Translations under genes and position numbers: made by a program | NCBI GenBank assembly: GCA_946186915.1 | Contig: CAMHOY010000014.1 | Location: 1,243 to 65,242, forward strand | Direction of reading: 5' to 3' | Source of the DNA: an uncultured Bacteroidales bacterium | Lineage (GTDB): Bacteria; Bacteroidota; Bacteroidia; Bacteroidales; Paludibacteraceae | DNA: 64,000 bases | The notes under the pieces: generated by a model | Database searches by the model: none | Told to the model about the DNA's origin: nothing | What the model saw: only the letters and a program-made list of their open reading frames with translations | Shown here: positions 2,774 to 23,054 of the stretch, one piece after another | Layout of the letters: each line of letters opens with the position of its first letter | Numbering within the stretch: position 1 is the first letter of the stretch

Positions 2774-2799
2774 AATAATAACTAAAACAACAAAATACT

Positions 2800-3594
2800 A
2801 TGATGGATTTATTGATTCTTTTTGCGGTGGCGATGGCGGTTTCCGCAGTGGGGTGGAAATACTTTGTGTATTTCTTCAGTCTCGGTTACGGTTATGGCAT
2901 TGCCGCATTGGCAGTGACCATGGGCGTGCTATACCACGCGAATCTCTCGGTGCCGACAATTGCGATGTTGGTGCTGCTGCTGATTTTCGGAATCCGGCTT
3001 GGTACGTATCTTTTGGTGCGCGAACGCAAGGCAGTGGGGTACCGTAAGATTCTGTACGGCGAGGGACATTCGGAGAAGAAGCCTGCCGGCGTGATGATCA
3101 TGATATGGCTGTTCTGCGCGCTGCTGTACGTGGCGCAGGTGAGCCCTGTGGCTTTCCGGCTGGCGAACGGACCGCACGATAGCGAGCTGTGGGCATGGAT
3201 AGGTGCGGCGGTGGTGGCTTGCGGCATCTTGTTAGAGAGCATCAGCGACGCGCAGAAGAGTGCCGCCAAGAAAAAGAACCCGAAGCGGTTTGTGGATACC
3301 GGTCTGTACCGTATCGTCCGCTGCCCGAACTATCTGGGCGAAGTGACCATCTGGACGGGCGCGTTGCTCAGCGCGATTGGCGCAGGGCTGACTTGGTGGC
3401 AGTGGTTGATAGTAGGAATAGGGTACGCAGGTATCGTGTTTGTGATGTTCAGCGGCGCACGCCGGCTGGAGTTGCGTCAGAACGCCGCCTATGGCAATGA
3501 CCCCGAATATCAGGCGTACGTGAAGAAAACGCCTATCCTGATACCGTTCCTGCCTATTTATTCCGTAGCCCAATATGAATGGCTCAAGGCATGA
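2800..3594 (+). CDS. DUF1295 / steroid-5-alpha-reductase-like membrane protein
   Basis: 264 aa and multi-TM, with the C-terminal motif RIVRCPNYLGEVTIW typical of the DUF1295/ICMT-like fold. Confidence 0.8.
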   Translation: MMDLLILFAVAMAVSAVGWKYFVYFFSLGYGYGIAALAVTMGVLYHANLSVPTIAMLVLLLIFGIRLGTYLLVRERKAVGYRKILYGEGHSEKKPAGVMIMIWLFCALLYVAQVSPVAFRLANGPHDSELWAWIGAAVVACGILLESISDAQKSAAKKKNPKRFVDTGLYRIVRCPNYLGEVTIWTGALLSAIGAGLTWWQWLIVGIGYAGIVFVMFSGARRLELRQNAAYGNDPEYQAYVKKTPILIPFLPIYSVAQYEWLKA

Positions 3595-3595
3595 G
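3207..3595 (+). repeat. 389-bp direct repeat, copy 1 (copy 2 at 15662-16050)
   Basis: My manual alignment gives about 25 mismatches and no indels (~94% identity). Homology stops 1-2 nt after the stop codon. Confidence 0.9.
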
Positions 3596-3629
3596 GTTTT
3601 AATGTTTAGGGATTAGTGATTAGAGCAGT

Positions 3630-4880: not shown

Positions 4881-4887
4881 CAGACTG

Positions 4888-4989
4888 ATGGAAGAGTTCA
4901 TTTTTTTTAGGTTTTAACATGCACGCATGGATCACGATAGTGACCGTGCTGGCATTGTTCGGCATTCTGCTGTTTACAAAGGTGCGCAC
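4888..4989 (+). pseudogene. 5' fragment of a second SLC13 permease gene (frameshifted and truncated)
   Basis: ATGGAAGAGTT... aligns with 1259-1363. It encodes ..FNMHAWITIVTVLALFGILLFTKVR against FNLHAWITIVTVLALFSILLFTKVR. A 1-nt indel creates a TAA stop, and homology ends at about 4989. Confidence 0.75.
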
Positions 4990-4990
4990 G

Positions 4991-5205
4991 TATTCCATGT
5001 TTTTATAGCATCGTTCCTGTTGGCGCGGATTGAGGTGCATCGCCGGATCATTGAAAAGCATCATCTGACCGCCCATGCCGTAATTGCTGAGCGGGGTGGA
5101 CATCTCTGTAAATTCAGGCGTTACGTAGATGGTTATGGTACGGAAATCGGGGCTGGCGTTTGTTATCTGCGCCAGCTCGCTGCGACGGATGATCAGGCAA
5201 TCACC
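4991..5205 (-). pseudogene. fragment resembling the N-terminal (non-HTH) half of a Bacteroides AraC-type regulator
   Basis: The reverse frame reads GDCLIIRRSELAQITNASPDFRTITIYVTPEF...LNPRQQERCYKNMEY. There is no HTH domain, a stop lies upstream, and the fragment is truncated at the 4990 junction. Confidence 0.3.
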
Positions 5206-5245
5206 AGCCTGCTTTTCGCCATTTTATTTTTGCTCGTCGGTCGGA

Positions 5246-5603
5246 TTAGCCTATTTCGCCCTTTTGTTGCTTTTGTGCGGATTTGGTGATGGTCTCGTGA
5301 TAGAAATAATTGACCACCACCGGTGGTTCGCCATGCTTGGCACGCACACTGTCATCATTACGCACATAAGGCAGATTCTCCGTCTCGCAGAAGGTGCGCA
5401 ACTGACCGTCCAACTCTGTCCAGTACGTGCGGTCTCTTTTTGAGTATATCTGGCGATACAAAGCATCCAATTCCGGGTGGTGTTCGTGCACCCAATTGGA
5501 TGTTGGCATTGTCCACTTGAACCGCAGCACGAATCTCAGCGTCGGTTGTGACGACGGTTTGCGACAAAGCAATCTGCACTCCTGCACACAGTAGAAATCT
5601 CAT
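5246..5603 (-). pseudogene. small ORF immediately after the NRPS stop, apparently frameshifted (possibly NTF2/SnoaL-like)
   Basis: A TAAATG junction links it to the NRPS. MRFLLCAGVQIALSQTVVTTDAEIRAAVQVDNANIQ (frame 1) continues as WVHEHHPELDALYRQIY...YFYHETI in a second frame, shifting near 5500. Confidence 0.3.
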
Positions 5604-8600
5604 TTACTCATCAAAGAATCCTAATTGGCTGATTGCGATTAGCATCCGATTGACATACGCGCTATCCGGTGCAGACCAATGGAAGCCCAAACGGAGCAGG
5701 ACTGCAGAGGTATAGCGGTTATCACGCTCGATAGTAACCGCCTTCTGTCCATGCGTCATGTCCTGGTATGCCAAGAGAGCGGACATGAGGCTGGCTTTCT
5801 TCGGGTCTTTGCTGGCCTCGAGAATCGCTTGCTGGAACTCGTCTTCCTCCACGTAACGGATGGACTTGCCTATCTTCTCAAAGCCCGCGAGGATATCGCC
5901 CAAGAGGTCGGTATGGTTATTGAAGGGTTGGAAGACGTTACACTCCTTCGGCGTAGAGGCAAGCAGTACGACTGCCTTTGCGGTCTCGTTCACCGGTGAG
6001 AACTCTGCCGGCGAGTCGTATTCGTCTATCGGACAGCAGCCAAGGGTTGAGAATACTTTGAGTCGTCCCATGTAACTATTCGTCTGGAAGTTCGCCTGGA
6101 ACTCACCGTCGTAGCTACGCGCAGCGAGGTTACCCACACGCATGATCTTAGCGTTCAGTCCATGACGAGCTACCGCTTCGAGAATGACACGTTCGGCAAG
6201 GAACTTCGACCGCATATAGCGGTTATCGAGGAACTGACCGAAATAGAGGAGACGCTCCGAGAGTTCGGGCACCGCTTTTCCATCGCCACGATCGACCCAA
6301 ATCTCTCCGACCGAAGTGGTGGATATATGTACGAGTCGTGTACCGGTCTTGAGACAGAACTCCACGCATCGCTCCGCGCCGCCGATATTCACCTGTTCGA
6401 TGTCGTCGGTCTTGGAGAAGTGCTTGACGTTCGCGGCGCAGTTAAAGACTGTCTGAATACTAATATCGGATAACTGATTACTGAAATCGTTTGTCACATC
6501 GCCGTTAACGACGAAGAGGCGGGAACCGAAGAGTTCATCAAAACGTCGGTCGAAATAGTAGAAGAGCAAGTTACGCAGACGTCGTTGCGCATCGTGCTGG
6601 TCTTTTCCGCGGACAAGACACGTGATGGTCTTGGCATCCGAGTCAATGAGTTCGCGCAAGACGTGGATACCGAGATAACCGGTAGCACCGGTGAGCAGTA
6701 CATTGCCTAACTCCTGACGCTCTCCGCGCAGGAACGTATTGAGATTATTGCGTTGCAGAATCGCATCAATGCCCGTATAATCGAAGGCTGCTGCTTCTTG
6801 GTCATTGGCCGTTTGTTCATCCGTGTCACCGGACAGGAACTGCGCCAAGAGACGCGGCGTCGGATGGGTGAAGATATCACCGTAAGCGACATGCTTGCCG
6901 GCTTTGTCCGCTTCGATGATGACACGGGTGACCATAAGAGATGTACCGCCGAGTTCGAAGAAGTTATCCGTAGCACCTATCTTATCCTGATTGAGGATGG
7001 AGGCGAATATGTCACAGAAGAGTTTCTCGTTGTCATTAGCCGGAGCTACGTAGTCGCGGTCGGTGTCGGTGAGTTGCGGAGCCGGAAGGGCACGTTTGTT
7101 CACTTTCTGGTTCTGGTTCAGTGGGATGACATCAATCTGCATGGTCGAAGCCGGTACCATGTACGGCGGTTTGCGATCACGGATGAAGGCATTGAGTGCC
7201 TGGATGTCAATCTTGCTGTCGCTGACGATATATGCCGCGATGAACTTACCTCCGTTGGGGTAATCAAAGGCCTGTACGGTAGCATCGTTGATGCCCGGGA
7301 ACTCACGGATGACCGCCTCAACCTCTTTGAGTTCGATACGGAAACCGCGGATCTTTACCTGACCATCCTGCCGTCCGACAAACTGAATATTGCTGTCTGC
7401 GAGATAGCGAACGACGTCACCGGTGCGGTAACAGCGAAGACCATTCCAGTCGATATAGGTCTCGGCGGTCTTGTCGGGACGGTTGAGGTAACCTCGGCTG
7501 ACTTGTGGACCGGAGACGAGCAGCTCGCCTGTAGCACCTACAGGCACACGGTGCAGGTCCTTATCAACGATGAAGAGCCGGAAGTTATCCAGCGGTTTGC
7601 CGATAGGGATATTCTTCTCCTGCTCGTGTATCGGATAGGTCGTCGTGAAGATCGTACACTCGGTCGGACCGTACGCGTTATGAAGCAGGTAGTTAGCCGG
7701 CGGCGCGATAGTCGCGAGTTTTTCTCCTCCCACAGACAAGTGCTTGAGGGAATGATTGTCGCAGTTCTGGGCAAACTGATAGCCGACCTGGGTCGTCATG
7801 AACGAATGGGTGATACCTTCGGCTTCGAAATAATGATTGAGATCCGGCAAGTTGAGTCGGATATCCTCGCCGATGATATAGACTGCTGCACCGCAAGTGA
7901 GCGCCGGGTACATATCCATCATGTTCGCATCGAAACCGTAGGAAGCGTACGCCGCCACTTTGTCTCCGGCATGGAGGTCATAATAGCGATGGTACCAATG
8001 ACAGAACGCCACAAGGTTGCGGTGCTCGAGTTGGCAGCCTTTGGGTACGCCGGTGGAGCCGGAGGTATAAAGGAGGATGAATAAATCCTGTGGATTTATA
8101 AGACCGCTATCGCTCAAAGTAGAAAGACCGCTATCGCTCAAAGTAGAAAGATCTTTTGTCAGGAGGACGGGGCCGGAGTATTCATTGACGATGGGACGGA
8201 GGTCGGTATCGGCGATGAGAAGGGACGCGTTGGCATCCTTCATCATGAAGTTCAGACGCTCTGCCGGATAAGACGGATCGAGCGGCTGGTACGCACAACC
8301 GGCTTTGAGGGCAGCCAAGGAAGCGACCACCATCCATTCGGAACGGTTGATGAGGATGGAAACGACTCGTTCGGATTTAATATCCGAACATTGGATATTG
8401 GTGATTGGTGATTGGTGATTGAGCACCTCATATATCTTCGCAGCGATGGTGTCCGTGCGTTCATCCACCTCTTTGTAGGTGAGGCGGACATCGTGATACA
8501 CGACCGCGAGATTATCGGGCGTCTCAGCCGCTTGCTTACGGAAGAGCGAGACGATGGTCTGGGTGTCGTCATAAGGCACCTCCGTCTGATTGAACGAGTC

Positions 8601-11519
8601 GAGCACCGCTGTCTGCGCTTTATTAAGAAGCGAGATAGCACGCAGAGGAGCGTTAGTGTTCGCCGCAAAAGCCAGCACGGCATTCGCTACCGACTGCGCG
8701 AGGTTGGTGATCAGCGCTTCGCTATACCATCCGTTGTCGTACTCGACCGCAATACTCGGCACGCCGTCCATCGGCATGATATAGAACGCGATCTTGAATT
8801 TCGGCACGTTCTGCTCCATGGTCTCGTCGGCGAAAACGGGTTTGCCAAAGACGCTATAGTTGCTCAGCACGCCCATCTGGTAAGCGAACATGATCTCCGC
8901 CTTCAAGTCATAATCCGCTGCTACGCGTGCAAACGGATAATCCTCGTGCGCGAGCGTTTGCTCGAAGGACTGCGCGTTCTCTTTAACAAACTCCTCTACC
9001 GTCTGGTTCGCTATCTTCGTAGTCAGCGCAAGGGTGTTGACGAACATTCCCATGGTGTTGTTCACCCGCAGGTTGCTTCGTCCGTTGGAGATGGTGGTGA
9101 TGCAGACATCATCTGTTCCTGCAAAACGTGCCAAGGAATAATAGACGGCGCTAAGGAGCACAGCTGCCGGCGTCACGCCTAATTGCGCTGCATATTTCTC
9201 CGCCGTAGGCATGTCGAAAGGTACGCAGACGCGTCCGTTCTCACCTTGCGGCAGGGCGTTGGTGAGGTCGGGTTGGATCTCGGTGACACTCTCTATTCCG
9301 GTGAGGCGCTCGGCGAAGAAGGCTTGCGCAGCCTTGAAGGACTCGCCTTCCTGCGCAGCTTTCTGCTCCGCCACGAACTGCGGATAGGAGCACATCTCGG
9401 GTTCGATCTCCTTGCCTTCCAGCAGGTCACAAATCTCATGGATGAAGAGGTCGTACGACGCGCCGTCGCACACGAGATGGTGGATGTCGCTCAACAGATA
9501 CAGATTCTTCTCCGTGCGCACGATGACGAAACGGAAAAGCAGGTCTTTCTGCAGGTTGAACGGATGTACGAACTCATGTTTGAAGGCATCCATCTGCGCC
9601 TCTTCGAGCGCTTTCTCGGGTACGTCGACAGCTGCTTCGTTCATCATCTGCTCGTCGATGGTCTGGATGACATCGGCTTCCTGAGTCGCAAAATGCACGA
9701 AGAGTTCGGAGTGGTTGAGCACCGCCTTGCGCACCGCTTGCCGTAATGCGTCGGCCTCTACGTCCAACGGCATCTGAATACAGATCGGCACGTTATAGAG
9801 CGTGGAGGTGGGGTTCTTCATGCATTCGAAATAGACGCCCATTTGAGCGAAGGAGAGAGGAGCTTCGCTCATTTGAGATTGGACATTTGAAATTTGAGAT
9901 TTTTCATTTTCGGTATCACGATGACCGCCTAACATCGCAGCGAGTATCTCATTCTCAATCGCTTGCAATGTGATGCCTTTGGTCATTTGTTTGGCATCGA
10001 GTTGGATGCCGAAACGCTTGAAGATCTGGGTTGCTAACTTGATGGCAGCGATAGAGGAGAGACCCATATAACGCAGGTCGGTCGTGATGCCGAACTCCTC
10101 CATATTGACAATCTTCGCGATGATGTCGTGTAGCTCCTGCTCGAGGACATTGAGGGGAGCCGCAGCCACAGCCTCCTCTACTTCGGGCTTGGGTGCTTCG
10201 GGCTTCGGCAGGGCACGTTTATCGACTTTCTGGTTCGGGTTGAGCGGTATAGCGTCAATCTGCATTGTTACCGCAGGCACCATGTAGGGCGGTTTGCTGT
10301 CACCAATAAAAGCATTGAGATCGTCGATATTGATCTTCTCGTCGCTTACTACGTACGCGGCGATGAACTTACCGCCATCCGGGTAGTCGAAGGCTTGCAC
10401 GGTAGCATCCTTGATACCGGGGAACTCACGAATGATGGCTTCTACCTCTTTGAGCTCGATACGGAAACCGCGGATCTTCACTTGTCCGTCCCGTCTGCCG
10501 ACAAACTCGATATTTCCGTCCTCGCGGTAGTGAACGATGTCGCCGGTTTTGTAGCAACGCAAGCCGTTCCAATCGACGAAGACTTCTGCGGTCTTCTCGG
10601 GTTGGTTGAGGTATCCGAGCGACACCTGCGGTCCGGCTACATAGAGTTCGCCGTCCGTGCCGGTCGGTACTTCTTGACCGTCCTGACCGACCACGATGAG
10701 TCGCGTACCGTTCGTATTGGCTTTGCCGATAGGTATATTGGGTTCGTTCTGCGTCACAAAGAAACTGCTGACATAGACGGTACACTCCGTCGGACCATAG
10801 CAGTTCATCAACTTATACGAAGGCGGATCGAGACTGATAAGTTTCTCGCCGCCCGTACCGAGCCACTGGAGGCCCGATATGTCGGGATAATTGAGCACGA
10901 GCTGCGTCGCCATCTGCGTCGTCATGAAGCAGTGGGTAATGTGCTCGTCCTGAATATATTGGTTGAGGCCCTCCAGGTCAAAACGGATCTCGTCGCCCAC
11001 GATGCAGATAGTAGCACCTGCCATGACGCAGCACCAGAGGTCCATCTGGAAGGCATCAAAACCGTAACCGGCATAAGTAGCGTACTTGCTTTGCGGAGTC
11101 AAGCCTATTGCCTGGACATGGAAATCAAGGAAGGCTAAGATATTCGCCTCGCTCAGCATAACACCTTTGGGAACACCGGTTGTACCGGAGGTATAGAGCA
11201 GCACGAATGCTTCATCACCATCGTACTTGGAGGCATCCTCCCGCATGAATTTCAGTCGTTCCTCGGGATAAGAGCCGTCGAGCGGCATAGCGGTCAAGCC
11301 TGCTTTCGCGATGGCGATAGGTGTCAGCACCATGAGTTCGTTACGGGGCACGATAAACGATGCCACTTTGTCACCGCAACGGGTGACGTACTGCGGATCG
11401 AGAGTGTCCGTCAAACGGTCTGCCTCTGCGAAGGTGATGCGTTTGTCCCCTGCGATGCAGAAGATATCATTCGGACGCTCGGCAACGTGTTTTTTGAAGT
11501 ATTCGATTAAGTGTTTCAT
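5604..11519 (-). CDS. bimodular non-ribosomal peptide synthetase, A-T-C-A-T-R (terminal thioester reductase)
   Basis: A1 core LLYTSGTTGVPKG lies at ~11165-11205 and the T1 motif MGLSSI at 10053-10058. The C-domain HHLVCDG is at 9462-9482. A2 core LLYTSGSTGVPKG is at 8038-8082 and the T2 motif FELGGTS at ~6937-6960. The R domain has LLTGATGYLG at ~6665-6705 and YMRSK. Confidence 0.95.
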   Translation of the reverse strand: MKHLIEYFKKHVAERPNDIFCIAGDKRITFAEADRLTDTLDPQYVTRCGDKVASFIVPRNELMVLTPIAIAKAGLTAMPLDGSYPEERLKFMREDASKYDGDEAFVLLYTSGTTGVPKGVMLSEANILAFLDFHVQAIGLTPQSKYATYAGYGFDAFQMDLWCCVMAGATICIVGDEIRFDLEGLNQYIQDEHITHCFMTTQMATQLVLNYPDISGLQWLGTGGEKLISLDPPSYKLMNCYGPTECTVYVSSFFVTQNEPNIPIGKANTNGTRLIVVGQDGQEVPTGTDGELYVAGPQVSLGYLNQPEKTAEVFVDWNGLRCYKTGDIVHYREDGNIEFVGRRDGQVKIRGFRIELKEVEAIIREFPGIKDATVQAFDYPDGGKFIAAYVVSDEKINIDDLNAFIGDSKPPYMVPAVTMQIDAIPLNPNQKVDKRALPKPEAPKPEVEEAVAAAPLNVLEQELHDIIAKIVNMEEFGITTDLRYMGLSSIAAIKLATQIFKRFGIQLDAKQMTKGITLQAIENEILAAMLGGHRDTENEKSQISNVQSQMSEAPLSFAQMGVYFECMKNPTSTLYNVPICIQMPLDVEADALRQAVRKAVLNHSELFVHFATQEADVIQTIDEQMMNEAAVDVPEKALEEAQMDAFKHEFVHPFNLQKDLLFRFVIVRTEKNLYLLSDIHHLVCDGASYDLFIHEICDLLEGKEIEPEMCSYPQFVAEQKAAQEGESFKAAQAFFAERLTGIESVTEIQPDLTNALPQGENGRVCVPFDMPTAEKYAAQLGVTPAAVLLSAVYYSLARFAGTDDVCITTISNGRSNLRVNNTMGMFVNTLALTTKIANQTVEEFVKENAQSFEQTLAHEDYPFARVAADYDLKAEIMFAYQMGVLSNYSVFGKPVFADETMEQNVPKFKIAFYIMPMDGVPSIAVEYDNGWYSEALITNLAQSVANAVLAFAANTNAPLRAISLLNKAQTAVLDSFNQTEVPYDDTQTIVSLFRKQAAETPDNLAVVYHDVRLTYKEVDERTDTIAAKIYEVLNHQSPITNIQCSDIKSERVVSILINRSEWMVVASLAALKAGCAYQPLDPSYPAERLNFMMKDANASLLIADTDLRPIVNEYSGPVLLTKDLSTLSDSGLSTLSDSGLINPQDLFILLYTSGSTGVPKGCQLEHRNLVAFCHWYHRYYDLHAGDKVAAYASYGFDANMMDMYPALTCGAAVYIIGEDIRLNLPDLNHYFEAEGITHSFMTTQVGYQFAQNCDNHSLKHLSVGGEKLATIAPPANYLLHNAYGPTECTIFTTTYPIHEQEKNIPIGKPLDNFRLFIVDKDLHRVPVGATGELLVSGPQVSRGYLNRPDKTAETYIDWNGLRCYRTGDVVRYLADSNIQFVGRQDGQVKIRGFRIELKEVEAVIREFPGINDATVQAFDYPNGGKFIAAYIVSDSKIDIQALNAFIRDRKPPYMVPASTMQIDVIPLNQNQKVNKRALPAPQLTDTDRDYVAPANDNEKLFCDIFASILNQDKIGATDNFFELGGTSLMVTRVIIEADKAGKHVAYGDIFTHPTPRLLAQFLSGDTDEQTANDQEAAAFDYTGIDAILQRNNLNTFLRGERQELGNVLLTGATGYLGIHVLRELIDSDAKTITCLVRGKDQHDAQRRLRNLLFYYFDRRFDELFGSRLFVVNGDVTNDFSNQLSDISIQTVFNCAANVKHFSKTDDIEQVNIGGAERCVEFCLKTGTRLVHISTTSVGEIWVDRGDGKAVPELSERLLYFGQFLDNRYMRSKFLAERVILEAVARHGLNAKIMRVGNLAARSYDGEFQANFQTNSYMGRLKVFSTLGCCPIDEYDSPAEFSPVNETAKAVVLLASTPKECNVFQPFNNHTDLLGDILAGFEKIGKSIRYVEEDEFQQAILEASKDPKKASLMSALLAYQDMTHGQKAVTIERDNRYTSAVLLRLGFHWSAPDSAYVNRMLIAISQLGFFDE
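8101..8148. repeat. perfect 24-bp tandem duplication inside the NRPS A2 domain
   Basis: AGACCGCTATCGCTCAAAGTAGAA occurs twice in tandem. It is in frame and encodes LSTLSDSG-LSTLSDSG just upstream of the A3 core. Confidence 0.95.
8397..8421. repeat. 7-bp x3 tandem repeat (GTGATTG) inside the NRPS
   Basis: ATTGGTGATTGGTGATTGGTGATTG spans 21 bp, is in frame, and encodes HQSPITN. Confidence 0.85.
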
Positions 11520-11520
11520 A

Positions 11521-11823
11521 TTATTCTATTGTAAAAAGGTTCTGGAAACCGCTCATGCGGAAGATGTCGCTCACGTCCTCATTGAGGTGGGTGATGCGAA
11601 TGGAGCCGCCTTTCGCCTCGGATTCTCGTTTGAGTTGCATGAAGAACCGCAAGCCGGCTGAAGAGATGTACTCGAGTTGCTCACAATCAATCTCCAGCGC
11701 TTTGTCGGCAAGTGCCAACACCTGATTCAGATCCTCTACTTGGGTTGTAGTAACTGTCGTGTCAAGTTCGCCGATAAAGCAAACACGCGTCTCTTGGTCA
11801 TTCGGAATAATGCTGATTTTCAT
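11521..11823 (-). CDS. STAS-domain anti-sigma-factor antagonist (SpoIIAA/RsbV-like)
   Basis: 100 aa with CEQLEYISSAGLRFF, the phosphorylatable-Ser context. Its stop lies 1 nt from the NRPS start codon. Confidence 0.85.
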   Translation of the reverse strand: MKISIIPNDQETRVCFIGELDTTVTTTQVEDLNQVLALADKALEIDCEQLEYISSAGLRFFMQLKRESEAKGGSIRITHLNEDVSDIFRMSGFQNLFTIE

Positions 11824-11856
11824 ATTGTATAAAAGTTTAATGTCGCTGCGCGACGT

Positions 11857-13872
11857 TTAAGAGTTTAAAAGTTTAATGAGCGTGAGGACGTTTTTATTCT
11901 CCTTCCGCTCGTAGTGCAGTTCATCAACGATTTGTCGGATGAGATGGATTCCCATTCCTCCCACCTGGCGTTCACCGGTTGCTTTCTCATTGGGCACATG
12001 CCCCGTGGGGTCAAAAGCGATGCCGTCGTCCTCCAACTGAATACTGACCGCTGATAACTGACAGCTAAGCTCTATTCTTATCTCCGTCGCTTGCGAATAA
12101 TGAAGAATATTCACGACAGCTTCTTCGGCCGCCACTTCGAGTTTTTTGAGTCCTTTCTTGTCCATGCCGTTGCATAATCCAAAGGTATGGATTGCCTTTC
12201 GCAGGACAGGCCACTGGTCTTTGTGGCAAGGCACGCGCAGCGTCACAGGCTGGACGGGGCTTGTCTTTCGAATCGTCATGAGGGTGATATCATCCGTTGG
12301 TTCGGCTTTTCCCATAAAAGCTTTAATAGCGCCGTACATATCCTCCTTGTTCGCTACGATCTCCGACCATCGCTTCATTCCTAACATCTCACGGGCGCTG
12401 TTCCGCGCTTCGGTCACGCCATCGGTGTAAAGAACGATTTTCTCTCCTTCGCCAATCATGCAGCCTTGCTCCACAAACGAATACCGGCCGTCATATCCCA
12501 ACGGGATATTCGGTTCAACGGTGAGGGGTGAGGGGTTACCGGTTACGGGTGAGGAGATGATCGGCGCACAGTGTCCGGCATTGCAGAAGAGCAGTTCGCC
12601 TGTAGGGATACACAGACTTCCCACAAAAGCCGTCACGAAAGTAAGGGAGGGGTTGTTCTCGCTAAGGACGGTATTGATTTCTTCCATGATCTGTTTGGGT
12701 GAGGTTGCTCTCACACCAGCTGCGCGGAAGAGGTTCACTGCAGCACTCATGAACATAGCGGCCGGAACGCCCTTGCCGCTCACATCTCCGATGATGAACC
12801 AGAGGACGTCTCCTTCGCGATGGAAGTCAAAGAAGTCGCCTCCTACTTCGCGCATCGGGACAAGGAAGGTATGGAGTTCAATATCTCCGTTCGCTTGGGC
12901 TTTGATCCGTTCCTTGTCGTCTTTCAGGATTCCCATTTGGATATCATGGGCGATTTGCAGTTCGTGCGACACCACCTCCCGTTCCGTCTCCAGACGGGCG
13001 TTCTCTTGTTCATCCCGTGTCATACGACGGATCAACAGGCCCACCACGAGGATACCTAACACGAACACGCCCAAAGGCAACAAGGTGCCCAAACGAAGAC
13101 TATCGATAACATGGCTGCGCGGAACGGCAGTGACCATTCGGATATTTATCGGCTGAAGAGTCTTGCGGGAAACGATCCATGAGCCATCGTCCAACTCTCC
13201 ATCTTTCGGCGCTCCGTCACTGGCGGCAAGGAGGGTCCCGTTGGAACTATAGAGCATACACTCTGCCTCCTCGAATGGCCGGAAATGGTCCAGCATATTG
13301 TGTATCCATTTCAAACTGAAATCAATACCTATGACGCAAATCAGATCGCCCTTCTCGTCCAGCACGTCATTCGAATAGGTATAGATCGGTTCGTCAAAAT
13401 CTTCATCTATATACGGGGTGCTCCAATAGCCTGCGTTGTTTTGCACGGCTCCTTTATACCACTCGCGTTCAAAATAATCATGCTCGGCATCCCCAAAAGG
13501 GCAGGAGACTATCGAATCCTTCGTACGATAGGAAGTCAAGCAGAACCACTTCCCTTTTTCCGGATAATAATACGGCGGGAAAGCTACATAGCAGGAATAA
13601 AAATTCGGATACCGTTTGATGAGTTCGTTGGTCTTGCTGTACAAATTCTCCGGGTGCGTCAGGTTCCTCTTCACCTCTTCTATCAGCTGAGCGTTGGCAT
13701 CCAGCGCGTCGTACAGTTCAAAACGCAGTTTCTCTTGGGCGATCTGCATCTCGAGTTCCATCTTCTCCTGAAAACGGAACCGCGACCTGCTATAGGACAC
13801 GTACGACTGTACTCCCATTCCGAGAAGAAGGAAAAGGGCCGCTAAAATATGTATGTACTTAAATCGTTTCAT
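11857..13872 (-). CDS. membrane sensor fusion: Cache-like periplasmic domain, TM, PP2C/SpoIIE phosphatase and RsbW-like HATPase kinase
   Basis: There is an N-terminal TM, a ~230-aa extracytoplasmic region and a second TM. The PP2C motifs are GGDFFDF...IIGDVSGKGVPAAMFMS...TDGVTEA...DDITL. The C-terminal kinase motifs are EEAVVNILHYS...EDDGIAFDP...GGMGIHLIR. Confidence 0.85.
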   Translation of the reverse strand: MKRFKYIHILAALFLLLGMGVQSYVSYSRSRFRFQEKMELEMQIAQEKLRFELYDALDANAQLIEEVKRNLTHPENLYSKTNELIKRYPNFYSCYVAFPPYYYPEKGKWFCLTSYRTKDSIVSCPFGDAEHDYFEREWYKGAVQNNAGYWSTPYIDEDFDEPIYTYSNDVLDEKGDLICVIGIDFSLKWIHNMLDHFRPFEEAECMLYSSNGTLLAASDGAPKDGELDDGSWIVSRKTLQPINIRMVTAVPRSHVIDSLRLGTLLPLGVFVLGILVVGLLIRRMTRDEQENARLETEREVVSHELQIAHDIQMGILKDDKERIKAQANGDIELHTFLVPMREVGGDFFDFHREGDVLWFIIGDVSGKGVPAAMFMSAAVNLFRAAGVRATSPKQIMEEINTVLSENNPSLTFVTAFVGSLCIPTGELLFCNAGHCAPIISSPVTGNPSPLTVEPNIPLGYDGRYSFVEQGCMIGEGEKIVLYTDGVTEARNSAREMLGMKRWSEIVANKEDMYGAIKAFMGKAEPTDDITLMTIRKTSPVQPVTLRVPCHKDQWPVLRKAIHTFGLCNGMDKKGLKKLEVAAEEAVVNILHYSQATEIRIELSCQLSAVSIQLEDDGIAFDPTGHVPNEKATGERQVGGMGIHLIRQIVDELHYERKENKNVLTLIKLLNS

Positions 13873-15233
13873 AAGTTAAAGATACCCAGCCCATTCAGGA
13901 AGATGAGCACGATAGCTATCGGTACGATCCAGCGGAGCGTGAAGATGAATAACGGGCGGAGCCATTGTTTGTACCGTTTCTGGCTGTACGGCACGAGGTC
14001 CTTGTCTTGTAACGGCATGAACCATCCTATGAACAGCGACATGGATAAGGCGCTAAGCGGCATCATGAATGTCGTGACGAGGGTGTCGCTCAAATCGAAA
14101 AGGCTGTGTCCGAAAAGTTTCAAACCGCTCCATACACCGGTCATGGAGAGTACATAGACTGCAACCGTTGCACAAATGACCGCGGTAGCAATCAACACGC
14201 TCTGATGGCGGTTCAGTTTACCATGGCTCAACTCCATGATGCTGACAACAATCACCTCCATCAACGAGATGGTTGAGGTGAGCGCAGCAATGAAGAGCAG
14301 GAGGAAGAAGAACACGCCGCTGATCCAGGCAAACGTCATGTGTTGCAAGACTGCCGGCAGCACGACGAAGACTAATTGCGGACCTTCAGCCGGGTTGAAA
14401 CCGAACGCGAACACCGCCGGAAAGATGATGATTCCCGCCAAGACAGCTACCAATGTGTCGAGGAGAATGACGATGAAGGACGTCTTGGTGGCGTCCTGGT
14501 CCTTCGGCATATAAGCGCCGTAAGTGATCATCAGACCAAGACCGACAGAGAGGCTGAAGAAACACTGACCTGCGGCAGTCATCACCACCGCGGGAGTGAT
14601 TTGTGAGAAATCAGGAGCAAGGAAGAAGCGCAGTCCCGTTCCGCTGCCCTCCAACAGCAGGACGCGGATCACCATCAAGGTCATCATGATGAACAAAAGA
14701 GGCATAAGGATCTTACTCAGCCGCTCGATACCGCTGCTCACTCCGAACCAAAGGATGGCGGCGGTGATAAGAACAGGGATGATGCCGCAAATGAGCATCT
14801 TGAGGGTATTGGAGGTATTGGCCGTAAAATGCGCGAGCAGTTCGTTCGTGCCCATGCCCGCGTACGAGTTGACCGTCGCTTCATACAAATAATCGACACA
14901 CCAGCCTGTCACCACGAAATAAAAGCCGGTGATGACAAACACCGTCAACGCGGACCACCACCCTAACCATTGCCAGTGGTTGTTGCCGCTGATAGCGCGG
15001 AATGCCGAGAAGGTTGATTTGCCCGCTTTTCTGCCTATCAGTATCTCCGTCATCAATAACGGCATACCGAACACGATCACACAAATAAGGTAAACAAGCA
15101 AAAAAGCACCACCGCCATTTTGACCTGCCTCATAAGGGAATTTCCATATATTGCCTAAACCGATAGCACTGCCCGCTGCGGCTAATATGACACCCAATTT
15201 GGAATTAAAACCCGATTTATTTGATTGTTCCAT
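13869..15233 (-). CDS. neurotransmitter:sodium symporter (NSS/SNF) family transporter
   Basis: GLGNIWKFPYEAGQNGGGAFL signature and 11-12 TMs. I moved the start to the ATG at 15233 because the tracked TTG at 15260 lies inside the -7 box. An ATGA overlap links it to the next gene. Confidence 0.9.
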   Translation of the reverse strand: MEQSNKSGFNSKLGVILAAAGSAIGLGNIWKFPYEAGQNGGGAFLLVYLICVIVFGMPLLMTEILIGRKAGKSTFSAFRAISGNNHWQWLGWWSALTVFVITGFYFVVTGWCVDYLYEATVNSYAGMGTNELLAHFTANTSNTLKMLICGIIPVLITAAILWFGVSSGIERLSKILMPLLFIMMTLMVIRVLLLEGSGTGLRFFLAPDFSQITPAVVMTAAGQCFFSLSVGLGLMITYGAYMPKDQDATKTSFIVILLDTLVAVLAGIIIFPAVFAFGFNPAEGPQLVFVVLPAVLQHMTFAWISGVFFFLLLFIAALTSTISLMEVIVVSIMELSHGKLNRHQSVLIATAVICATVAVYVLSMTGVWSGLKLFGHSLFDLSDTLVTTFMMPLSALSMSLFIGWFMPLQDKDLVPYSQKRYKQWLRPLFIFTLRWIVPIAIVLIFLNGLGIFNL

Positions 15234-15257
15234 AAGCTCGTCTCGTGAATTTGCGCG

Positions 15258-15289
15258 CAAAATTACTATTTTTTTTTCATATATGCAAG
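15258..15289 (-). promoter_or_regulatory. promoter of the NSS-PP2C-STAS-NRPS operon
   Basis: On the reverse strand: cTTG, 20 bp, then TAATTTTG. It overlaps the 12-bp palindrome TTTGCGCGCAAA at 15250-15261. Confidence 0.6.
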
Positions 15290-15337
15290 AGTAAATGGCA
15301 GAAATCGTTCAGAATCATCCGGTAGCGTTGCATTGGA

Positions 15338-15409
15338 TTAGTTTGTTACTTTCTTTACCAGCGTGAGGATGTTCTTGCCCTCCACGCGTTCGTAGCGGAT
15401 GATTCCGCT
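15338..15409 (-). pseudogene. C-terminal remnant of another PP2C/RsbW-type gene
   Basis: The reverse frame reads GIIRYERVEGKNILTLVKKVTN*, which aligns with the C-terminus DELHYERKENKNVLTLIKLLNS* of the 671-aa fusion protein. A stop lies upstream. Confidence 0.4.
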
Positions 15410-15661
15410 ATTTTACTCAAATTCTCCGTGCATTTCTGCCACGGGTACATATAACTTAACTTTTGTCAGAAGGTGGCACAGTTTTTGTGGTATATTTTAT
15501 AGTGTCAATCCGCCAAACTTGGCGGATACTTTCAGGCCCTCTTCCTCTCGTTTATGTTATACGAACGACGTGCTAATGACGCGGTAACCACCCGGTTATC
15601 ACGCGCTAATCACGCCCTTTTGGATGCTATTAACCCTTATAAAACCTCGATTTTAGGTCGA

Positions 15662-16049
15662 GGCGGTTGTGGCTTGCGGCATATTGCTGGAGAGCATCAG
15701 CGACGCGCAGAAGAGTGCCGCCAAGAAAAAGAACCCGAAGCGGTTTGTGGATACCGGTCTGTACCGTGTCGTCCGCTGCCCGAACTACCTGGGCGAAGTG
15801 ACCATCTGGACGGGCGCGTTGCTCAGCGCGATAGGTGCAGGGCTGACCTGGTGGCAGTGGCTGATAGTGGGAATAGGGTACGCAGGCATTGTGTTTGTGA
15901 TGTTCAGCGGCGCCCGCCGACTGGAGTTGCGTCAGAACGCCGCCTATGGCAATGACCCCGAATATCAGGCATACGTGAAGAAGACTCCGATTCTGATTCC
16001 GTTGCTACCTATTTATTCCGTAGCAAAATATGAATGGCTCAAGGCATGA
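15662..16049 (+). pseudogene. 3' fragment (126 codons) of a second DUF1295 gene; direct-repeat copy 2
   Basis: About 94% nt identity to 3207-3595, with only 3 aa differences. There is no 5' half. The hairpin CCTCGA-ttttag-GTCGAGG sits at the junction (15639-15659). Confidence 0.85.
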
Positions 16050-18190: not shown

Positions 18191-19816
18191 ATGAGATTCC
18201 GTACTTTACCCATAGTGGCTATTCTATTCGTTGCCGCGGCAATGGTTGTTCAGTTCGTCATCTCTTTTTCTTTGGAGAGAGAGCACGTGCGCGAGGTGGT
18301 TGAATACAAAATGCAGTTGGCGCAGAAGGACTTCTTCTACGTCTTGTTAGGTTTTCATAACGCGGCAGACGAGATACGGAAATATGTTCTGGAACATCCA
18401 GGCACTGAGCGCGAGTTATTAGAGGCGACCCGTTCGGAACTTGAGCGCTATCCGCATATAGACAATATTTTCGTTAAGTTTGCGCCTGGTGTCTATCAGG
18501 GCAAGGAGAGTAATTATTTCCCGCGTACATATCGTTCCCACGGTCAGACGATCACTACTGCGCATGGCTCGGATAGTTTGGATTACTACGTGCGCGACTG
18601 GTACACCGGTGCACTCCGATGCGACAGTAACGGTTATTGGTCAGAGCCGTATATAGGCGCAAGTACACAGACACTGATTGCATCCCATTCCATCAAAATA
18701 GAAGACGAACAAGGACGATTAGTAGGCGTAGTGGGAGATGATTTTAGGATCGAGTGGATGAAAGATATTCTCCAGGATATCAAGCCTCATGAAGAGGCGG
18801 TCTGTATTCTTCATGGAACGAACGGCAGCCTCATCGCTTCCTCTGACAATAGTACGCCGGAAAACGAGATGCGGTACAAGAACGATAAATGGCATTGGAT
18901 GGCCTATTCGCAGAGGATGTACCCGATCAACATGGAGTTGATGATCGCCGTGCCGAATCGTATCATTTGGCAGAGTATCCAAAAGAAGAGCCTTATTACG
19001 CTTTGTGTCCTGATTATCGGTATCGTTGTGCTCGTTCTGCTCTTTCGCCGGATTGAGAAAAACCAGAAAGCATACCTTCAGGTAGAGAATGAGCATAAAC
19101 TCATCCAAAATGAGATGCAGATTGCGCGGAATATCCAGAGAAGTATCTTGGTGCATGATTTCATAGATGACGAGCAGCTCTCTCTCCACGCGACATTAGT
19201 GCCTATGCAGAGCGTCGGAGGCGATCTGTATGATTTCTATCGTGACGGCGATTATGTGACCTTCATCATAGGCGACGTCAGCGGCAAAGGAATGCCTGCG
19301 GCGATGTTCATGTCCGCTACCGTGACGCTCTTTCGCGCTACTGTAAAACATCATTTGTCGCCCAATGTGATTATGGGGGAGATAAATTCCACACTCTCGT
19401 CGAACAACAGTTCGATGATGTTCGTGACCGCTTTTATCGGGCGGCTCCATCTACCGACAGGTCAACTGACGTACTGCAACGCCGGGCATCTGCCGCCTCT
19501 CATGGTGAAGGATGGACAGTGCCGCTGGTTCGATATGAAAGCGGCAAATGTCATTTTGGGGTTAGATGAGACCTACCATTTTACGGAGCAATCCACCACG
19601 CTCGATCATGGTGAGCAGGTCATCGTTTTTACCGATGGCGTTACAGAGGCGGAGAACGCCCGCAAAGAGTTGTTGGGTTTTGACCATCTGTTGGAGCAGT
19701 TGCAATCTGTTCAGCAGCCGATAGACGATCGGACGGTATTTGACGTAGTACGCCGGTTCAGCGCTGGTGCGGAACAATCGGATGACATTGCTATTATGAA
19801 CATAATGAGAAAATAA
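18191..19816 (+). CDS. membrane sensor PP2C/SpoIIE phosphatase (Cache-like domain, TM, PP2C; no kinase domain)
   Basis: The architecture and motifs are paralogous to 11857-13872 (GGDLYDF...IIGDVSGKGMPAAMFMS...TDGVTEA...SDDIAIM), but the protein ends after the PP2C domain. Confidence 0.85.
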   Translation: MRFRTLPIVAILFVAAAMVVQFVISFSLEREHVREVVEYKMQLAQKDFFYVLLGFHNAADEIRKYVLEHPGTERELLEATRSELERYPHIDNIFVKFAPGVYQGKESNYFPRTYRSHGQTITTAHGSDSLDYYVRDWYTGALRCDSNGYWSEPYIGASTQTLIASHSIKIEDEQGRLVGVVGDDFRIEWMKDILQDIKPHEEAVCILHGTNGSLIASSDNSTPENEMRYKNDKWHWMAYSQRMYPINMELMIAVPNRIIWQSIQKKSLITLCVLIIGIVVLVLLFRRIEKNQKAYLQVENEHKLIQNEMQIARNIQRSILVHDFIDDEQLSLHATLVPMQSVGGDLYDFYRDGDYVTFIIGDVSGKGMPAAMFMSATVTLFRATVKHHLSPNVIMGEINSTLSSNNSSMMFVTAFIGRLHLPTGQLTYCNAGHLPPLMVKDGQCRWFDMKAANVILGLDETYHFTEQSTTLDHGEQVIVFTDGVTEAENARKELLGFDHLLEQLQSVQQPIDDRTVFDVVRRFSAGAEQSDDIAIMNIMRK

Positions 19817-21594: not shown

Positions 21595-21596
21595 AT

Positions 21597-23009: not shown

Positions 23010-23054
23010 CTCGTGTCGTCTGGCTTTTAATTGAGTTTTGGCTCTTACAGCCTG

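What the first reader, a model, noticed from the sequence alone, without database searches (positions are those of the whole stretch)
5604..15289. A-T-C-A-T-R NRPS in Bacteroidales, co-transcribed with an NSS transporter and a partner-switching pair
**Seen in the sequence.**
- A 1971-aa NRPS has a complete two-module set of core motifs and a terminal SDR-type reductase (GATGYLG, YxxxK).
- No TE domain, MbtH-like gene or PPTase gene is present in the window.
- The four intact genes form one tight minus-strand unit behind a single promoter. Junctions are the ATGA overlap at 13869-13872, a 33-nt gap at 11824-11856 and a 1-nt gap at 11520. A further broken ORF abuts the NRPS stop (TAAATG at ~5601-5606).

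**Established knowledge.** A-T-C-A-T-R with reductive release is the architecture of AusA (aureusimine) and of the gut-Clostridia dipeptide-aldehyde/pyrazinone synthetases. NRPSs are uncommon in gut Bacteroidales, whose biosynthetic clusters are mostly saccharide or aryl-polyene types.

**Inference.** The product is a dipeptide aldehyde, dihydropyrazinone or amino alcohol. The NSS transporter may import a precursor amino acid or export the product.
Basis: partly seen in the sequence, partly recalled or inferred. Interest (0 to 1): 0.75.

Follow-up and report, generated by a model that had tools for sequence, protein, structure and literature searches.

The report
Rumen Bacteroidales reductase-ending NRPS operon
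A rumen-type Bacteroidales bacterium carries an intact two-module peptide synthetase, probably making a hydrophobic dipeptide aldehyde, in one operon with an amino-acid importer and a phospho-switch sensor pair; it is a sound find but an ordinary one, because it belongs to a large, already catalogued and chemically uncharacterised gene-cluster family.

Summary
Four minus-strand genes at 5604-15233 encode an MhsT-like NSS transporter, a Cache-PP2C-RsbW-kinase fusion, a STAS protein and a 1971-aa A-T-C-A-T-R NRPS, joined exactly as described.

- **NRPS integrity.** Every catalytic motif is present and invariant in 86 relatives. dN/dS is 0.03-0.12 in every domain, including the first A domain, which lacks about 40 residues.
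- **Missing partners.** No PPTase, MbtH-like gene, MatE or TE was found in the 64 kb.
- **Habitat claim.** At least 80 species-level genomes, nearly all ruminant-gut Bacteroidales MAGs, carry full-length relatives (40-97% identity).
- **Regulators.** The PP2C/STAS pair is a hallmark of the family: STAS lies upstream on the same strand in 54 of 66 informative loci. The same linkage was described in 2010 for Methanobrevibacter ruminantium NRPS clusters and recurs in Methanobrevibacter contigs fetched here.
- **NSS.** It is a sporadic accessory and more likely an importer than an exporter.

Verdict: a new member of a known kind, product untested. The open point is how a partner-switching module controls an NRPS. 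Its retention in archaea, which lack sigma factors, hints at a sigma-independent output.

The parts
5604..11519 (-). NRPS, 1971 aa, A1-T1-C-A2-T2-R
   Evidence: ORF; Pfam domains; motifs invariant in 86 relatives; dN/dS 0.03-0.12 in every domain.
10185..11519 (-). A1 adenylation domain (aa 1-445). About 40 residues are missing between core motifs A2 and A3. Hand-derived specificity code: DAMFGGCVYK.
   Evidence: Alignment to LgrA: q8-97 matches 211-302 and q102-442 matches 345-685. AF2 pLDDT 82.9, pTM 0.79. Foldseek TM 0.80-0.81 to the LgrA A domain. Code conserved in 67 of 86 relatives.
9915..10154 (-). T1 carrier domain, non-canonical GLSSI (Ser488/489)
   Evidence: Pfam PP-binding, 2 stretches. 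GLSSI invariant in 86 of 86.
8580..9884 (-). Condensation domain with HHLVCDG
7080..8564 (-). A2 adenylation domain (code DAMFSGAIFK) with two hypervariable repeat-bearing loops
6810..7034 (-). T2 carrier domain, GGTSL
5607..6722 (-). Terminal thioester reductase (SDR) with TGATGYLG, STTSV and YMRSK
   Evidence: NAD_binding_4. End-to-end alignment with 6VTJ PCP-R. Motifs invariant.
11521..11823 (-). Single-domain STAS protein (anti-sigma-antagonist type) with candidate phospho-site Ser55 in LEYISSAGLR
   Evidence: Pfam STAS and TIGR00377. Ser55, Gly57 and Arg59 invariant in 53 of 53. Same motif in the Methanobrevibacter STAS.
11857..13872 (-). Membrane sensor fusion: TM, Cache/PDC, TM, PP2C (SpoIIE) phosphatase, RsbW-like HATPase_c_2 kinase
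   Evidence: Pfam. Catalytic residues invariant in 57 homologues; kinase N and G boxes in 53-54 of 57 (G2 glycines 54-55). Best PDB match Rv1364c.
13869..15233 (-). NSS (SNF-family) transporter, MhsT-like, 454 aa from ATG 15233
   Evidence: Pfam SNF and NF037979. MhsT 4US3, E 7e-78, full length.
15258..15265 (-). Candidate Bacteroidetes -7 promoter motif TAATTTTG, 24 nt upstream of the NSS ATG
   Evidence: Sequence and motif scan. Suggestive only, because the count equals chance.
15332..15400 (-). Fossil of the 3' end of another RsbW-like kinase gene (IRYERVEGKNILTLVKKVTN*)
   Evidence: tblastn 52% over 23 aa, E 0.006. Resembles the C-terminus of the intact fusion, LHYERKENKNVLTLIKLLNS*.
18191..19816 (+). 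Paralogous Cache-PP2C sensor phosphatase without a kinase domain; a possible second input to the same STAS
   Evidence: Pfam. Clusters with the fusion.

Best explanation
This is a chromosomal operon of a ruminant-gut Bacteroidales bacterium that makes, and conditionally controls, a small reductively released dipeptide.

**Biosynthesis (inferred from intact domains).**
- A1 and A2 each activate a hydrophobic amino acid and load it on T1 and T2.
- C forms the dipeptidyl thioester on T2.
- The terminal R domain releases it with NAD(P)H as a dipeptide aldehyde.
- With a free N-terminus, the aldehyde cyclises to a dihydropyrazinone or pyrazinone.

**Supply (inferred).**
- The MhsT-like NSS transporter most likely imports the hydrophobic precursor amino acid(s).

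**Control (inferred from domain content and conservation).**
- The membrane sensor reads an extracytoplasmic ligand through its Cache domain.
- It then sets the balance between its own kinase and PP2C phosphatase activities on Ser55 of the STAS protein.
- The phosphorylation state of STAS decides whether the synthetase system is productive.

**Output step (not shown).**
- I favour a sigma-independent protein-protein output (about 45%) over classical release of a sigma factor (about 30%).

**Priming.**
- It must come from a PPTase encoded outside the window.
For: **NRPS intact.**
- All domains are found.
- Every core motif is invariant in 86 relatives of 75-97% identity.
- dN/dS is 0.03-0.12 per domain against L001 and L003, including the shortened N-terminus of A1.
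- A1 models as a complete A domain, with pLDDT 83 and TM 0.80-0.81 to LgrA.
- T2-R aligns end to end with the solved PCP-R 6VTJ (E 2e-91) and with the AusA R domain (E 2e-47).
- AusA is the best NCBIfam model.

**Hydrophobic substrates.**
- The pocket codes DAMFGGCVYK and DAMFSGAIFK contain no charged residue apart from the Asp235 and Lys517 found in every amino-acid-activating A domain. They are near-constant in the family.
- The NSS is a full-length relative of the hydrophobic amino-acid importer MhsT.

**Operon.**
- The junctions are a 4-nt overlap, a 33-nt gap and a 1-nt gap.

**Functional link to the switch.**
- In 66 loci with at least 3 kb of upstream flank, STAS lies upstream on the same strand in 54, and the PP2C fusion in 50. 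The pair has diverged to about 28-35% identity.
- STAS Ser55 is invariant in 53 of 53.
- PP2C metal-binding residues are invariant in 57 of 57, and the kinase N and G boxes in 53-54 of 57 (G2 glycines 54-55).
- The same gene set (Ser phosphatases, anti-sigma antagonist, MatE) flanks NRPS mru0068 in M. ruminantium (PMC2812497).
- It also flanks an NRPS in Methanobrevibacter contigs L081 and L082. Their STAS carries the identical LEYISSAGLR motif.
Against: - No product, expression or phosphorylation data exist.
- The specificity codes were derived by hand and match no code I can name.
- R domains cannot be sorted into 2-electron and 4-electron types from sequence (PMC8024701).
- A1 lacks about 40 residues found in every solved A domain, and T1 has GLSSI instead of GG(H/D)S(L/I).
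- No PPTase lies in the 64 kb.
- The NSS accompanies the NRPS in only 6-9 of 80 loci, so its link is weaker.
- No exporter is present here, whereas 30-31 related loci have MatE and an outer-membrane barrel.
- The promoter motif is no more frequent than chance.
Confidence: 0.7

Rival explanations
1. The R domain performs a four-electron reduction, so the product is a dipeptide amino alcohol rather than an aldehyde or pyrazinone.
For: R domains of both kinds share the same motifs, and the extent of reduction cannot be read from sequence (PMC8024701). The closest solved relative, Mru_0351, has an unknown product.
Against: The only relative with a solved R-domain structure whose product is known is AusA, an aldehyde former with the same A-T-C-A-T-R layout. 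From my own recollection, not checked here, the human-gut family of Guo et al. 2017 gives aldehydes and pyrazinones.
Confidence: 0.12
2. The shortened A1 and the unusual T1 are non-functional. The enzyme then works as a single module or needs loading in trans, so no dipeptide is made by the route described.
For: A deletion of about 40 aa between motifs A2 and A3. T1 has GLSSI rather than GGxS. The first 100 residues match known A domains only weakly.
Against: - dN/dS is 0.04-0.06 for A1 and 0.05-0.12 for its N-terminal 110 aa.
- All A3-A10 motifs and GLSSI are invariant in 86 relatives.
- The same short A1 also occurs behind a starter C domain in P0095 and P0096.
- The AF2 model is a complete two-subdomain A fold.
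- In the A2 domains of this family the same segment is a hypervariable loop, so it is dispensable.
Confidence: 0.05
3. The switch works in the textbook way. The RsbW-like kinase domain sequesters a sigma factor encoded elsewhere. Dephosphorylated STAS displaces it, and the freed sigma factor transcribes the operon.
For: The STAS protein scores above the curated cutoff of the anti-sigma-antagonist superfamily model TIGR00377. The kinase domain hits RsbW, RsbA and SpoIIAB anti-sigma models only far below their cutoffs, and its Pfam family HATPase_c_2 is the RsbW-type kinase fold. The best PDB relatives are SpoIIAA, RsbV and Rv1364c.
Against: - No sigma-factor gene recurs in the 10-kb flanks of 80 loci. 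Only PP2C, STAS, OM barrel, MatE, PPTase and NSS recur.
- The same STAS/PP2C set stays linked to this NRPS family in Methanobrevibacter, and archaea have no sigma factors.
- STAS sits translationally coupled directly in front of the synthetase.
Confidence: 0.3
4. The NSS transporter is a hitch-hiking neighbour with no role in the pathway.
For: An NSS gene is near the NRPS in only 6-9 of 80 loci. The closest full loci, L001 and L003, end their homology exactly at the sensor gene start. A fossil of another RsbW gene lies just upstream of the NSS, which shows local rearrangement.
Against: The ATGA overlap with the sensor gene implies translational coupling. NSS genes recur at different positions (upstream or downstream) next to distant family members, including L010, L020, L021, L030 and L063. 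MhsT-like hydrophobic specificity fits the A-domain pockets.
Confidence: 0.35

Closest known systems
AusA/PznA aureusimine synthetase of Staphylococcus aureus
   Same: Dimodular A-T-C-A-T-R. The terminal R releases a dipeptide aldehyde that cyclises to a pyrazinone. It is the best NCBIfam model, and the AusA R structure 4F6L matches at E 2e-47.
   Different: - The score is 1132 bits against an equivalog cutoff of 2500.
- No adjacent PPTase (AusB) is present.
- A1 is about 40 aa shorter.
- The phylum differs.
- It is linked to a partner-switching module and an NSS.
Methanobrevibacter ruminantium M1 NRPS clusters (mru0068 with mru0066/67/69/71; mru0351; PCP-R structure 6VTJ)
   Same: Rumen habitat and an R-terminated NRPS. 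It is the closest solved structure for T2-R (E 2e-91, end to end). It is flanked by Ser phosphatases, an anti-sigma antagonist and MatE (PMC2812497; L081 and L082). Its STAS carries the same LEYISSAGLR motif.
   Different: - The host is an archaeon.
- A starter C domain or four modules.
- Phosphatase and kinase are separate genes.
- MatE is present there and absent here.
- Products are equally unknown.
Human-gut Clostridia dipeptide-aldehyde/pyrazinone NRPS family (Guo et al., Cell 2017; recalled, paper not held)
   Same: Small R-terminated NRPSs of gut anaerobes, with or without a starter C domain. The same three architectures are seen here among relatives.
   Different: Different phylum and host animal. 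Sequence relationship to the characterised members could not be tested with these tools. Two Clostridia loci (L061, L073) are about 40% identical.
SypE/SypA of Vibrio fischeri, and the similar HsbR/HsbA and Rv1364c
   Same: One protein carries both an RsbW-like kinase and a PP2C phosphatase acting on a single-domain STAS protein. The module is embedded in a biosynthetic locus. The SypA output is not a known sigma factor (PMC4517449, PMC8256260). Rv1364c is the best PDB hit for the fusion.
   Different: - The input here is a periplasmic Cache domain rather than a receiver or PAS domain.
- The domain order differs.
- The controlled pathway is an NRPS rather than a polysaccharide or flagellar pathway.
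MhsT (Bacillus halodurans NSS transporter, 4US3)
   Same: Full-length homology, E 7e-78. Bacterial Na+-coupled importer of hydrophobic amino acids.
   Different: Substrate untested. Here it is encoded as the first gene of an NRPS operon.

Membership tests
Dimodular NRPS with terminal thioester reductase (AusA-type architecture) | Two adenylation domains with core motifs A3-A10, including the P-loop and Lys517 | tested here: met
   Motifs are present and invariant in 86 relatives. A1 lacks about 40 aa between A2 and A3 but folds as an A domain.
Dimodular NRPS with terminal thioester reductase (AusA-type architecture) | Two carrier domains with a phosphopantetheinylated Ser | tested here: inconclusive
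   PP-binding is found twice. T2 has canonical GGTSL. T1 has GLSSI, which is non-canonical but invariant. The modification itself is not testable, and no PPTase lies in the window.
Dimodular NRPS with terminal thioester reductase (AusA-type architecture) | Condensation domain with HHxxxDG | tested here: met
   HHLVCDG at 680-686 is invariant except V683 and C684, which are conservatively substituted in 4 and 2 of 86.
Dimodular NRPS with terminal thioester reductase (AusA-type architecture) | C-terminal SDR reductase with GxxGxxG and a Ser/Thr-Tyr-Lys triad | tested here: met
   TGATGYLG, STTSV and Y1768/K1772 are invariant. The domain aligns with 6VTJ and 4F6L.
AusA equivalog (NCBIfam NF047350) | Whole-protein score at or above the curated cutoff of 2500 bits | tested here: not met
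   1132.5 bits.
Dimodular NRPS with terminal thioester reductase (AusA-type architecture) | Product is a dipeptide aldehyde or pyrazinone | not testable with these tools
   Needs expression and LC-MS.
Partner-switching module (STAS, PP2C, RsbW-type kinase) | Single-domain STAS with a conserved phosphorylatable Ser | tested here: met
   TIGR00377 scores 57.1 bits against a cutoff of 53.45. Ser55 is invariant in 53 of 53.
Partner-switching module (STAS, PP2C, RsbW-type kinase) | PP2C/SpoIIE phosphatase with metal-binding Asp residues | tested here: met
   GGD346, D363, TDG484 and DD527-528 are invariant in 57 of 57.
Partner-switching module (STAS, PP2C, RsbW-type kinase) | RsbW/SpoIIAB-type Ser kinase with N and G boxes | tested here: met
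   HATPase_c_2, E 4e-20. E583, N588, D615xG617 and G638/G639/G641 are conserved in 53-55 of 57.
Partner-switching module (STAS, PP2C, RsbW-type kinase) | A cognate sigma factor as the switched partner | tested here: not met
   No recurrent sigma-like gene in the flanks of 80 loci. One encoded elsewhere in the genome cannot be excluded.
Rumen/gut PP2C-STAS-NRPS(-MatE-PPTase) cluster family | PP2C sensor and STAS directly upstream of an R-terminated NRPS on the same strand | tested here: met
   True of the window and of 50-54 of 66 informative loci.
Rumen/gut PP2C-STAS-NRPS(-MatE-PPTase) cluster family | MatE exporter, outer-membrane barrel and Sfp-type PPTase in the cluster | tested here: not met
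   Present in 30, 31 and 12-15 related loci but absent from the whole window. The window's sub-clade (L001-L009, L016, L017, L053) generally lacks them.
NSS/SNF transporters, MhsT-like | Full-length NSS fold above family thresholds | tested here: met
   PF00209 scores 190.8 bits and NF037979 scores 144 bits against a cutoff of 50. MhsT matches at E 7e-78 over 2-452. Substrate not testable.

The most novel reading that the evidence does not exclude
The Cache-PP2C-kinase/STAS module does not act through a sigma factor. Instead, phospho-regulated STAS acts directly on the assembly line, its priming or its export, as a post-translational on/off switch for non-ribosomal peptide synthesis.

Three observations leave this open:
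- The same STAS subfamily, with an identical LEYISSAGLR phospho-motif, stays glued to this NRPS family in Bacteroidales, in Clostridia and in Methanobrevibacter, and archaea have no sigma factors.
- In M. ruminantium a second STAS, phosphatase and kinase set sits beside the PPTase.
- No sigma gene recurs in 80 loci.
Probability: 0.35. Interest if true: 0.65.

Novelty: new member of a known kind. Interest (0 to 1): 0.35.

Why it matters
R-terminated NRPSs of gut anaerobes make reactive peptide aldehydes. In the human-gut examples these inhibit host proteases (my recollection of Guo et al. 2017, not checked here).

The rumen harbours thousands of such clusters whose products and triggers are unknown. 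This window gives a compact, exporter-less, PPTase-less representative that should be easy to express. It has nearly invariant specificity codes across 86 relatives, so one experiment would annotate a large group.

The broader value lies in the regulatory question. A sensor-kinase-phosphatase/STAS module has been faithfully linked to these synthetases across two domains of life. Understanding it could tell us what environmental cue switches on these metabolites in the rumen. It could also show whether STAS proteins can regulate enzymes directly.

Tried and rejected
- **Exact-sequence look-up.** The NRPS is not on record, so the source sample stays unknown.
- **Rfam.** Nothing reached the gathering score over the whole window.
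- **Sigma-70 promoter and terminator scan.** Counts were at or below shuffled expectation, so it is uninformative for a Bacteroidetes operon.
- **Bacteroidetes -7 motif.** One well-placed site, but the count equals chance.
- **Amino-acid-sensing Cache (dCache_1AA motif).** Rejected as a family feature. The window protein has residues I aligned by eye to the motif's Arg, Trp, Tyr and Asp (R136, W138, Y154, D172), but the Arg and Trp are not conserved among 57 sensors.
- **GATTAG repeats at both ends of the 12-kb segment as terminal inverted repeats.** Rejected: 4 matches in the window against 4.3 expected.
- **Broken ORF as a pathway gene (MbtH or PPTase).** Rejected. It has no Pfam hit, and its start is a signal-peptide fragment of an unrelated secreted protein.
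- **Literature.** Guo et al. 2017 and Donia et al. 2014 are not held. Searches for STAS or partner-switching with NRPS, and for rumen peptide aldehydes or pyrazinones, gave nothing specific apart from Leahy 2010.
- **Substrate prediction.** Not possible beyond 'hydrophobic', because NRPSpredictor, antiSMASH and MIBiG are not available.
Full report
**1. What is in the sequence.**

- The junctions follow from these coordinates: a 4-nt ATGA overlap, a 33-nt gap and a 1-nt gap.
- TAAATG at the NRPS stop is visible.

Pfam and NCBIfam give the following.
- NRPS: two AMP-binding domains, two PP-binding domains, one Condensation domain (552-973) and NAD_binding_4 (1609-1849), with no thioesterase.
- 100-aa protein: STAS, passing the anti-sigma-antagonist model TIGR00377.
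- 671-aa protein: MCP-like PDC/Cache (81-192), SpoIIE/PP2C (355-535) and HATPase_c_2 (552-667). Sensor, phosphatase and RsbW-type kinase are therefore fused in one membrane protein.
- Transporter: SNF family.

The mechanical TTG start of the NSS lies inside TAATTTTG (15265-15258), which fits the Bacteroidetes -7 consensus TAnnTTTG. The likely start is ATG 15233.

**2. Is the synthetase intact?**

All catalytic signatures are readable.
- In an alignment with 85 relatives of 75-97% identity they are invariant: both P-loops, both A10 lysines, HHxxxDG, T1 GLSSI, T2 GGTSL, TGATGYLG, STTSV and YxxSK.
- Pairwise dN/dS against the orthologues in L001 and L003 is 0.03-0.12 for each of the six domains.

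The weak point is A1.
- Against LgrA, residues 8-97 align with 211-302 and residues 102-442 with 345-685. About 40 residues between core motifs A2 and A3 are therefore missing.
- The deletion is a stable feature of the sub-family. It also occurs behind a starter C domain in P0095 and P0096.
- The N-terminal 110 residues have dN/dS of 0.05-0.12.
- AlphaFold2 with 24 sequences gives pLDDT 82.9 and pTM 0.79. Foldseek puts the model on LgrA A domains with TM 0.80-0.81.
- In the A2 domains of the family the same inter-motif segment is a hypervariable loop full of short repeats, so it is evidently dispensable.

I conclude that A1 is functional. T1 is probably functional too, but its priming cannot be tested here.

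**3. Specificity and product.**

I used PheA numbering anchored on FDxS, the GGE motif, YGPTE and the A10 lysine.
- The ten pocket residues are DAMFGGCVYK for A1 and DAMFSGAIFK for A2. These are shared by 67 and 75 of 86 relatives.
- Apart from the Asp235 and Lys517 common to amino-acid-activating A domains, both pockets are hydrophobic or small. This points to Leu, Ile, Val, Met or Phe-type substrates. That is an inference, since no predictor was available.

The T2-R didomain aligns from end to end with the PCP-R of M. ruminantium Mru_0351 (6VTJ, E 2e-91), and less well with AusA (4F6L, E 2e-47).

Established NRPS chemistry predicts reductive release of a dipeptidyl thioester as an aldehyde. 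With a free amine this cyclises to a dihydropyrazinone or pyrazinone (summarised in PMC8210680, and PMC8024701). Sequence cannot distinguish two-electron from four-electron reduction.

**4. How common is it, and where?**

The protein search returned more than 100 clusters with full-length matches. Three architectures were found.
- A-T-C-A-T-R, about 1960-2030 aa, which is the window type.
- C-A-T-C-A-T-R, 2375-2457 aa.
- A-T-C-A-T-C-A-T-R, about 3000-3090 aa.

In one-genome-per-species GTDB contigs, the 80 best loci were kept.
- They have 40-97% identity over essentially the whole protein.
- All but two are labelled Bacteroidales, Prevotella(ceae), Paludibacteraceae, Muribaculaceae or similar.
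- Judging by isolate names (RUG, RGIG and named cattle, sheep, goat, deer, yak or buffalo samples), most come from ruminant digestive-tract MAG collections.

A published survey of 8,160 rumen genomes counted 5,346 NRPS clusters, 934 of them in Bacteroidaceae (PMC8241843). The statement that NRPSs are rare in gut Bacteroidales therefore does not hold for this habitat. I found no paper characterising a product of these clusters.

**5. The neighbours.**

I called ORFs in all 80 loci, clustered them and annotated the recurrent clusters. The family-wide order is:
- Cache-PP2C(-kinase), then STAS.
- Often an Alginate_exp-like outer-membrane barrel (31 loci).
- The NRPS.
- Often MatE (30 loci) and an Sfp-type PPTase (12-15 loci).

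Among the 66 loci with at least 3 kb of upstream flank:
- STAS is upstream on the same strand in 54.
- The PP2C protein is upstream in 50.
- 64 of all 80 loci have one or the other somewhere in the locus.

This holds even though the pair has diverged to about 28-35% identity.
- STAS Ser55, in LEYISSAGLR, is invariant in 53 of 53 and corresponds by position to the phospho-serine of SpoIIAA.
- The PP2C metal ligands are invariant in 57 of 57, and the kinase N and G boxes are conserved in 53-54 of 57 (G2 glycines 54-55).

The window's own sub-clade has only sensor, STAS and NRPS. The window and L027 add the NSS. No MatE, barrel or PPTase homologue occurs anywhere in the 64 kb, and there is no MbtH signature.

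The NSS is a full-length relative of MhsT, the hydrophobic amino-acid importer (E 7e-78). NSS genes recur next to distant family members, but only in 6-9 loci and at variable positions.

**6. Already known.**

[quoted passage not shown] It also reports a further PPTase, STAS, phosphatase and kinase cluster elsewhere in the genome.

I confirmed this linkage independently.
- Methanobrevibacter contigs L081 and L082 carry NRPS(A-T-R), MatE, STAS and two SpoIIE genes.
- Their STAS is 36% identical to the window's and has the identical LEYISSAGLR motif.
- L083 shows the same NRPS-MatE pair beside archaeal L21e and Rpb4 genes.

The coupling of a partner-switching module to this NRPS family is therefore old, spans Bacteria and Archaea, and has been on record since 2010. 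Its mechanism has not been studied, as far as my searches show.

**7. How it most likely works.**

Shown by sequence:
- An intact dimodular reductase-terminated NRPS.
- A catalytically complete kinase/phosphatase sensor.
- A STAS protein with a conserved Ser.
- Tight operon junctions and strong synteny.

Inferred:
- Hydrophobic dipeptide aldehyde or pyrazinone product.
- Precursor import by the NSS.
- Ligand-dependent control of STAS phosphorylation.
- Priming by a PPTase encoded outside the window.

The output is open. Three points argue against the textbook sigma route and for a direct target, as with SypE/SypA in the Vibrio syp locus (PMC4517449, PMC8256260).
- No sigma gene recurs in 80 loci.
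- The module is retained in sigma-less archaea.
- STAS is translationally coupled to the synthetase.

I put this at about 45% against 30% for the textbook route within the regulatory step, and 0.35 as a stand-alone claim.

**8. Verdict.**

This is a new member of a known kind. It is a compact representative of a very large, catalogued, chemically uncharacterised rumen family. Its regulatory linkage is conserved and was described before, but it remains unexplained. Interest is moderate to low (0.35). The regulatory question is where follow-up would pay.

Noticed in passing
window 2800-3594 (+) and 15681-16049 (+), bracketing 3595-15680: The 3' half (about 370 bp) of a DUF1295 gene is present twice in direct orientation, at about 95% DNA and 97% aa identity. 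One copy is part of the intact gene and the other is a 5'-truncated fragment. Together they bracket a 12.1-kb segment holding an ADI-family gene, gene remnants and the whole NRPS operon. Homology stops right after the stop codon. This looks like the scar of a recombination or insertion event that brought in or rearranged the cassette. No integrase or transposase lies in the segment.
   Followed up: partly
window 15332-15400 (-): A 23-codon fossil (IRYERVEGKNILTLVKKVTN*) resembles the C-terminus of an RsbW-like kinase domain. It lies just upstream of the NSS promoter region, which suggests an older partner-switch gene was disrupted when the NSS arrived.
   Followed up: partly
window 5246-5603 (-): The 'broken ORF' abutting the NRPS stop begins with a signal peptide plus about 25 residues that are 51% identical to the start of a secreted repeat protein in L007. 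The remainder is in another frame and has no Pfam match. It is a gene remnant and not part of the pathway.
   Followed up: yes
window 18191-19816 (+): A paralogous TM-Cache-PP2C sensor phosphatase without a kinase domain lies 3 kb upstream of the operon on the opposite strand. It could be a second input to the same STAS, as RsbU and RsbP are in Bacillus. Some relatives (L017, L022, L065) also carry two PP2C genes.
   Followed up: partly
window 8100-8151 and 8397-8421 (within the A2 domain): Two repeats sit inside the two hypervariable surface loops of the A2 domain: a perfect 24-bp tandem repeat x2.2 (LSTLSDSG twice) and a 7-bp repeat x3.6 (CACCAAT on the coding strand, HQSPITN). These loops account for much of the length variation among relatives. 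A one-unit slip of the 7-bp repeat would frameshift the NRPS.
   Followed up: partly
window 10206-10616 versus 7083-7493: The C-terminal sub-domains of A1 and A2 are about 85% identical in protein and 76% in DNA over 411 bp, against 50% for the domains overall. This indicates intragenic duplication or gene conversion between the two modules.
   Followed up: partly
window about 52000-64000: GC drops from about 0.50 to about 0.35-0.38. The island follows a Wzt-type ABC ATPase. It mixes family-2 glycosyltransferases with defence-like genes: a TIR-domain protein (53437-54456), an AAA_21/AAA_15 ATPase (55264-57042) and a GmrSD-family nuclease (61931-63100).
   Followed up: partly
window 19831-24061 (-): A stand-alone AMP-binding enzyme (587 aa), a 486-aa protein with no Pfam match and a hemerythrin-GerE/LuxR regulator lie upstream of the second sensor. 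They are not conserved next to the NRPS in relatives.
   Followed up: no
L002 15964-17112 and L003 16060-17813 versus window 1274-4859: In close relatives, the ADI-family gene (L002) or the CitMHS transporter gene (L003) follows the NRPS in the same orientation. In the window the CitMHS-DUF1295-ADI block is inverted relative to the NRPS. The flanks of the cassette are therefore rearranged between close genomes, while homology ends exactly at the NRPS stop.
   Followed up: partly
L002 around 14276 (window 7126-7188): The orthologous NRPS of MAG RUG13090 is split into two ORFs by an indel of about 60 nt near the A2-T2 linker. This is either a pseudogene or an assembly error.
   Followed up: no
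window 15568-15615 and 15645-15665: An 11-bp tandem repeat (ACGCGCTAATC x4.4, 72% matches) and a short hairpin (CCTCGA-N7-TCGAGG) lie directly at the junction with the DUF1295 fragment. Their function is unknown.
   Followed up: no
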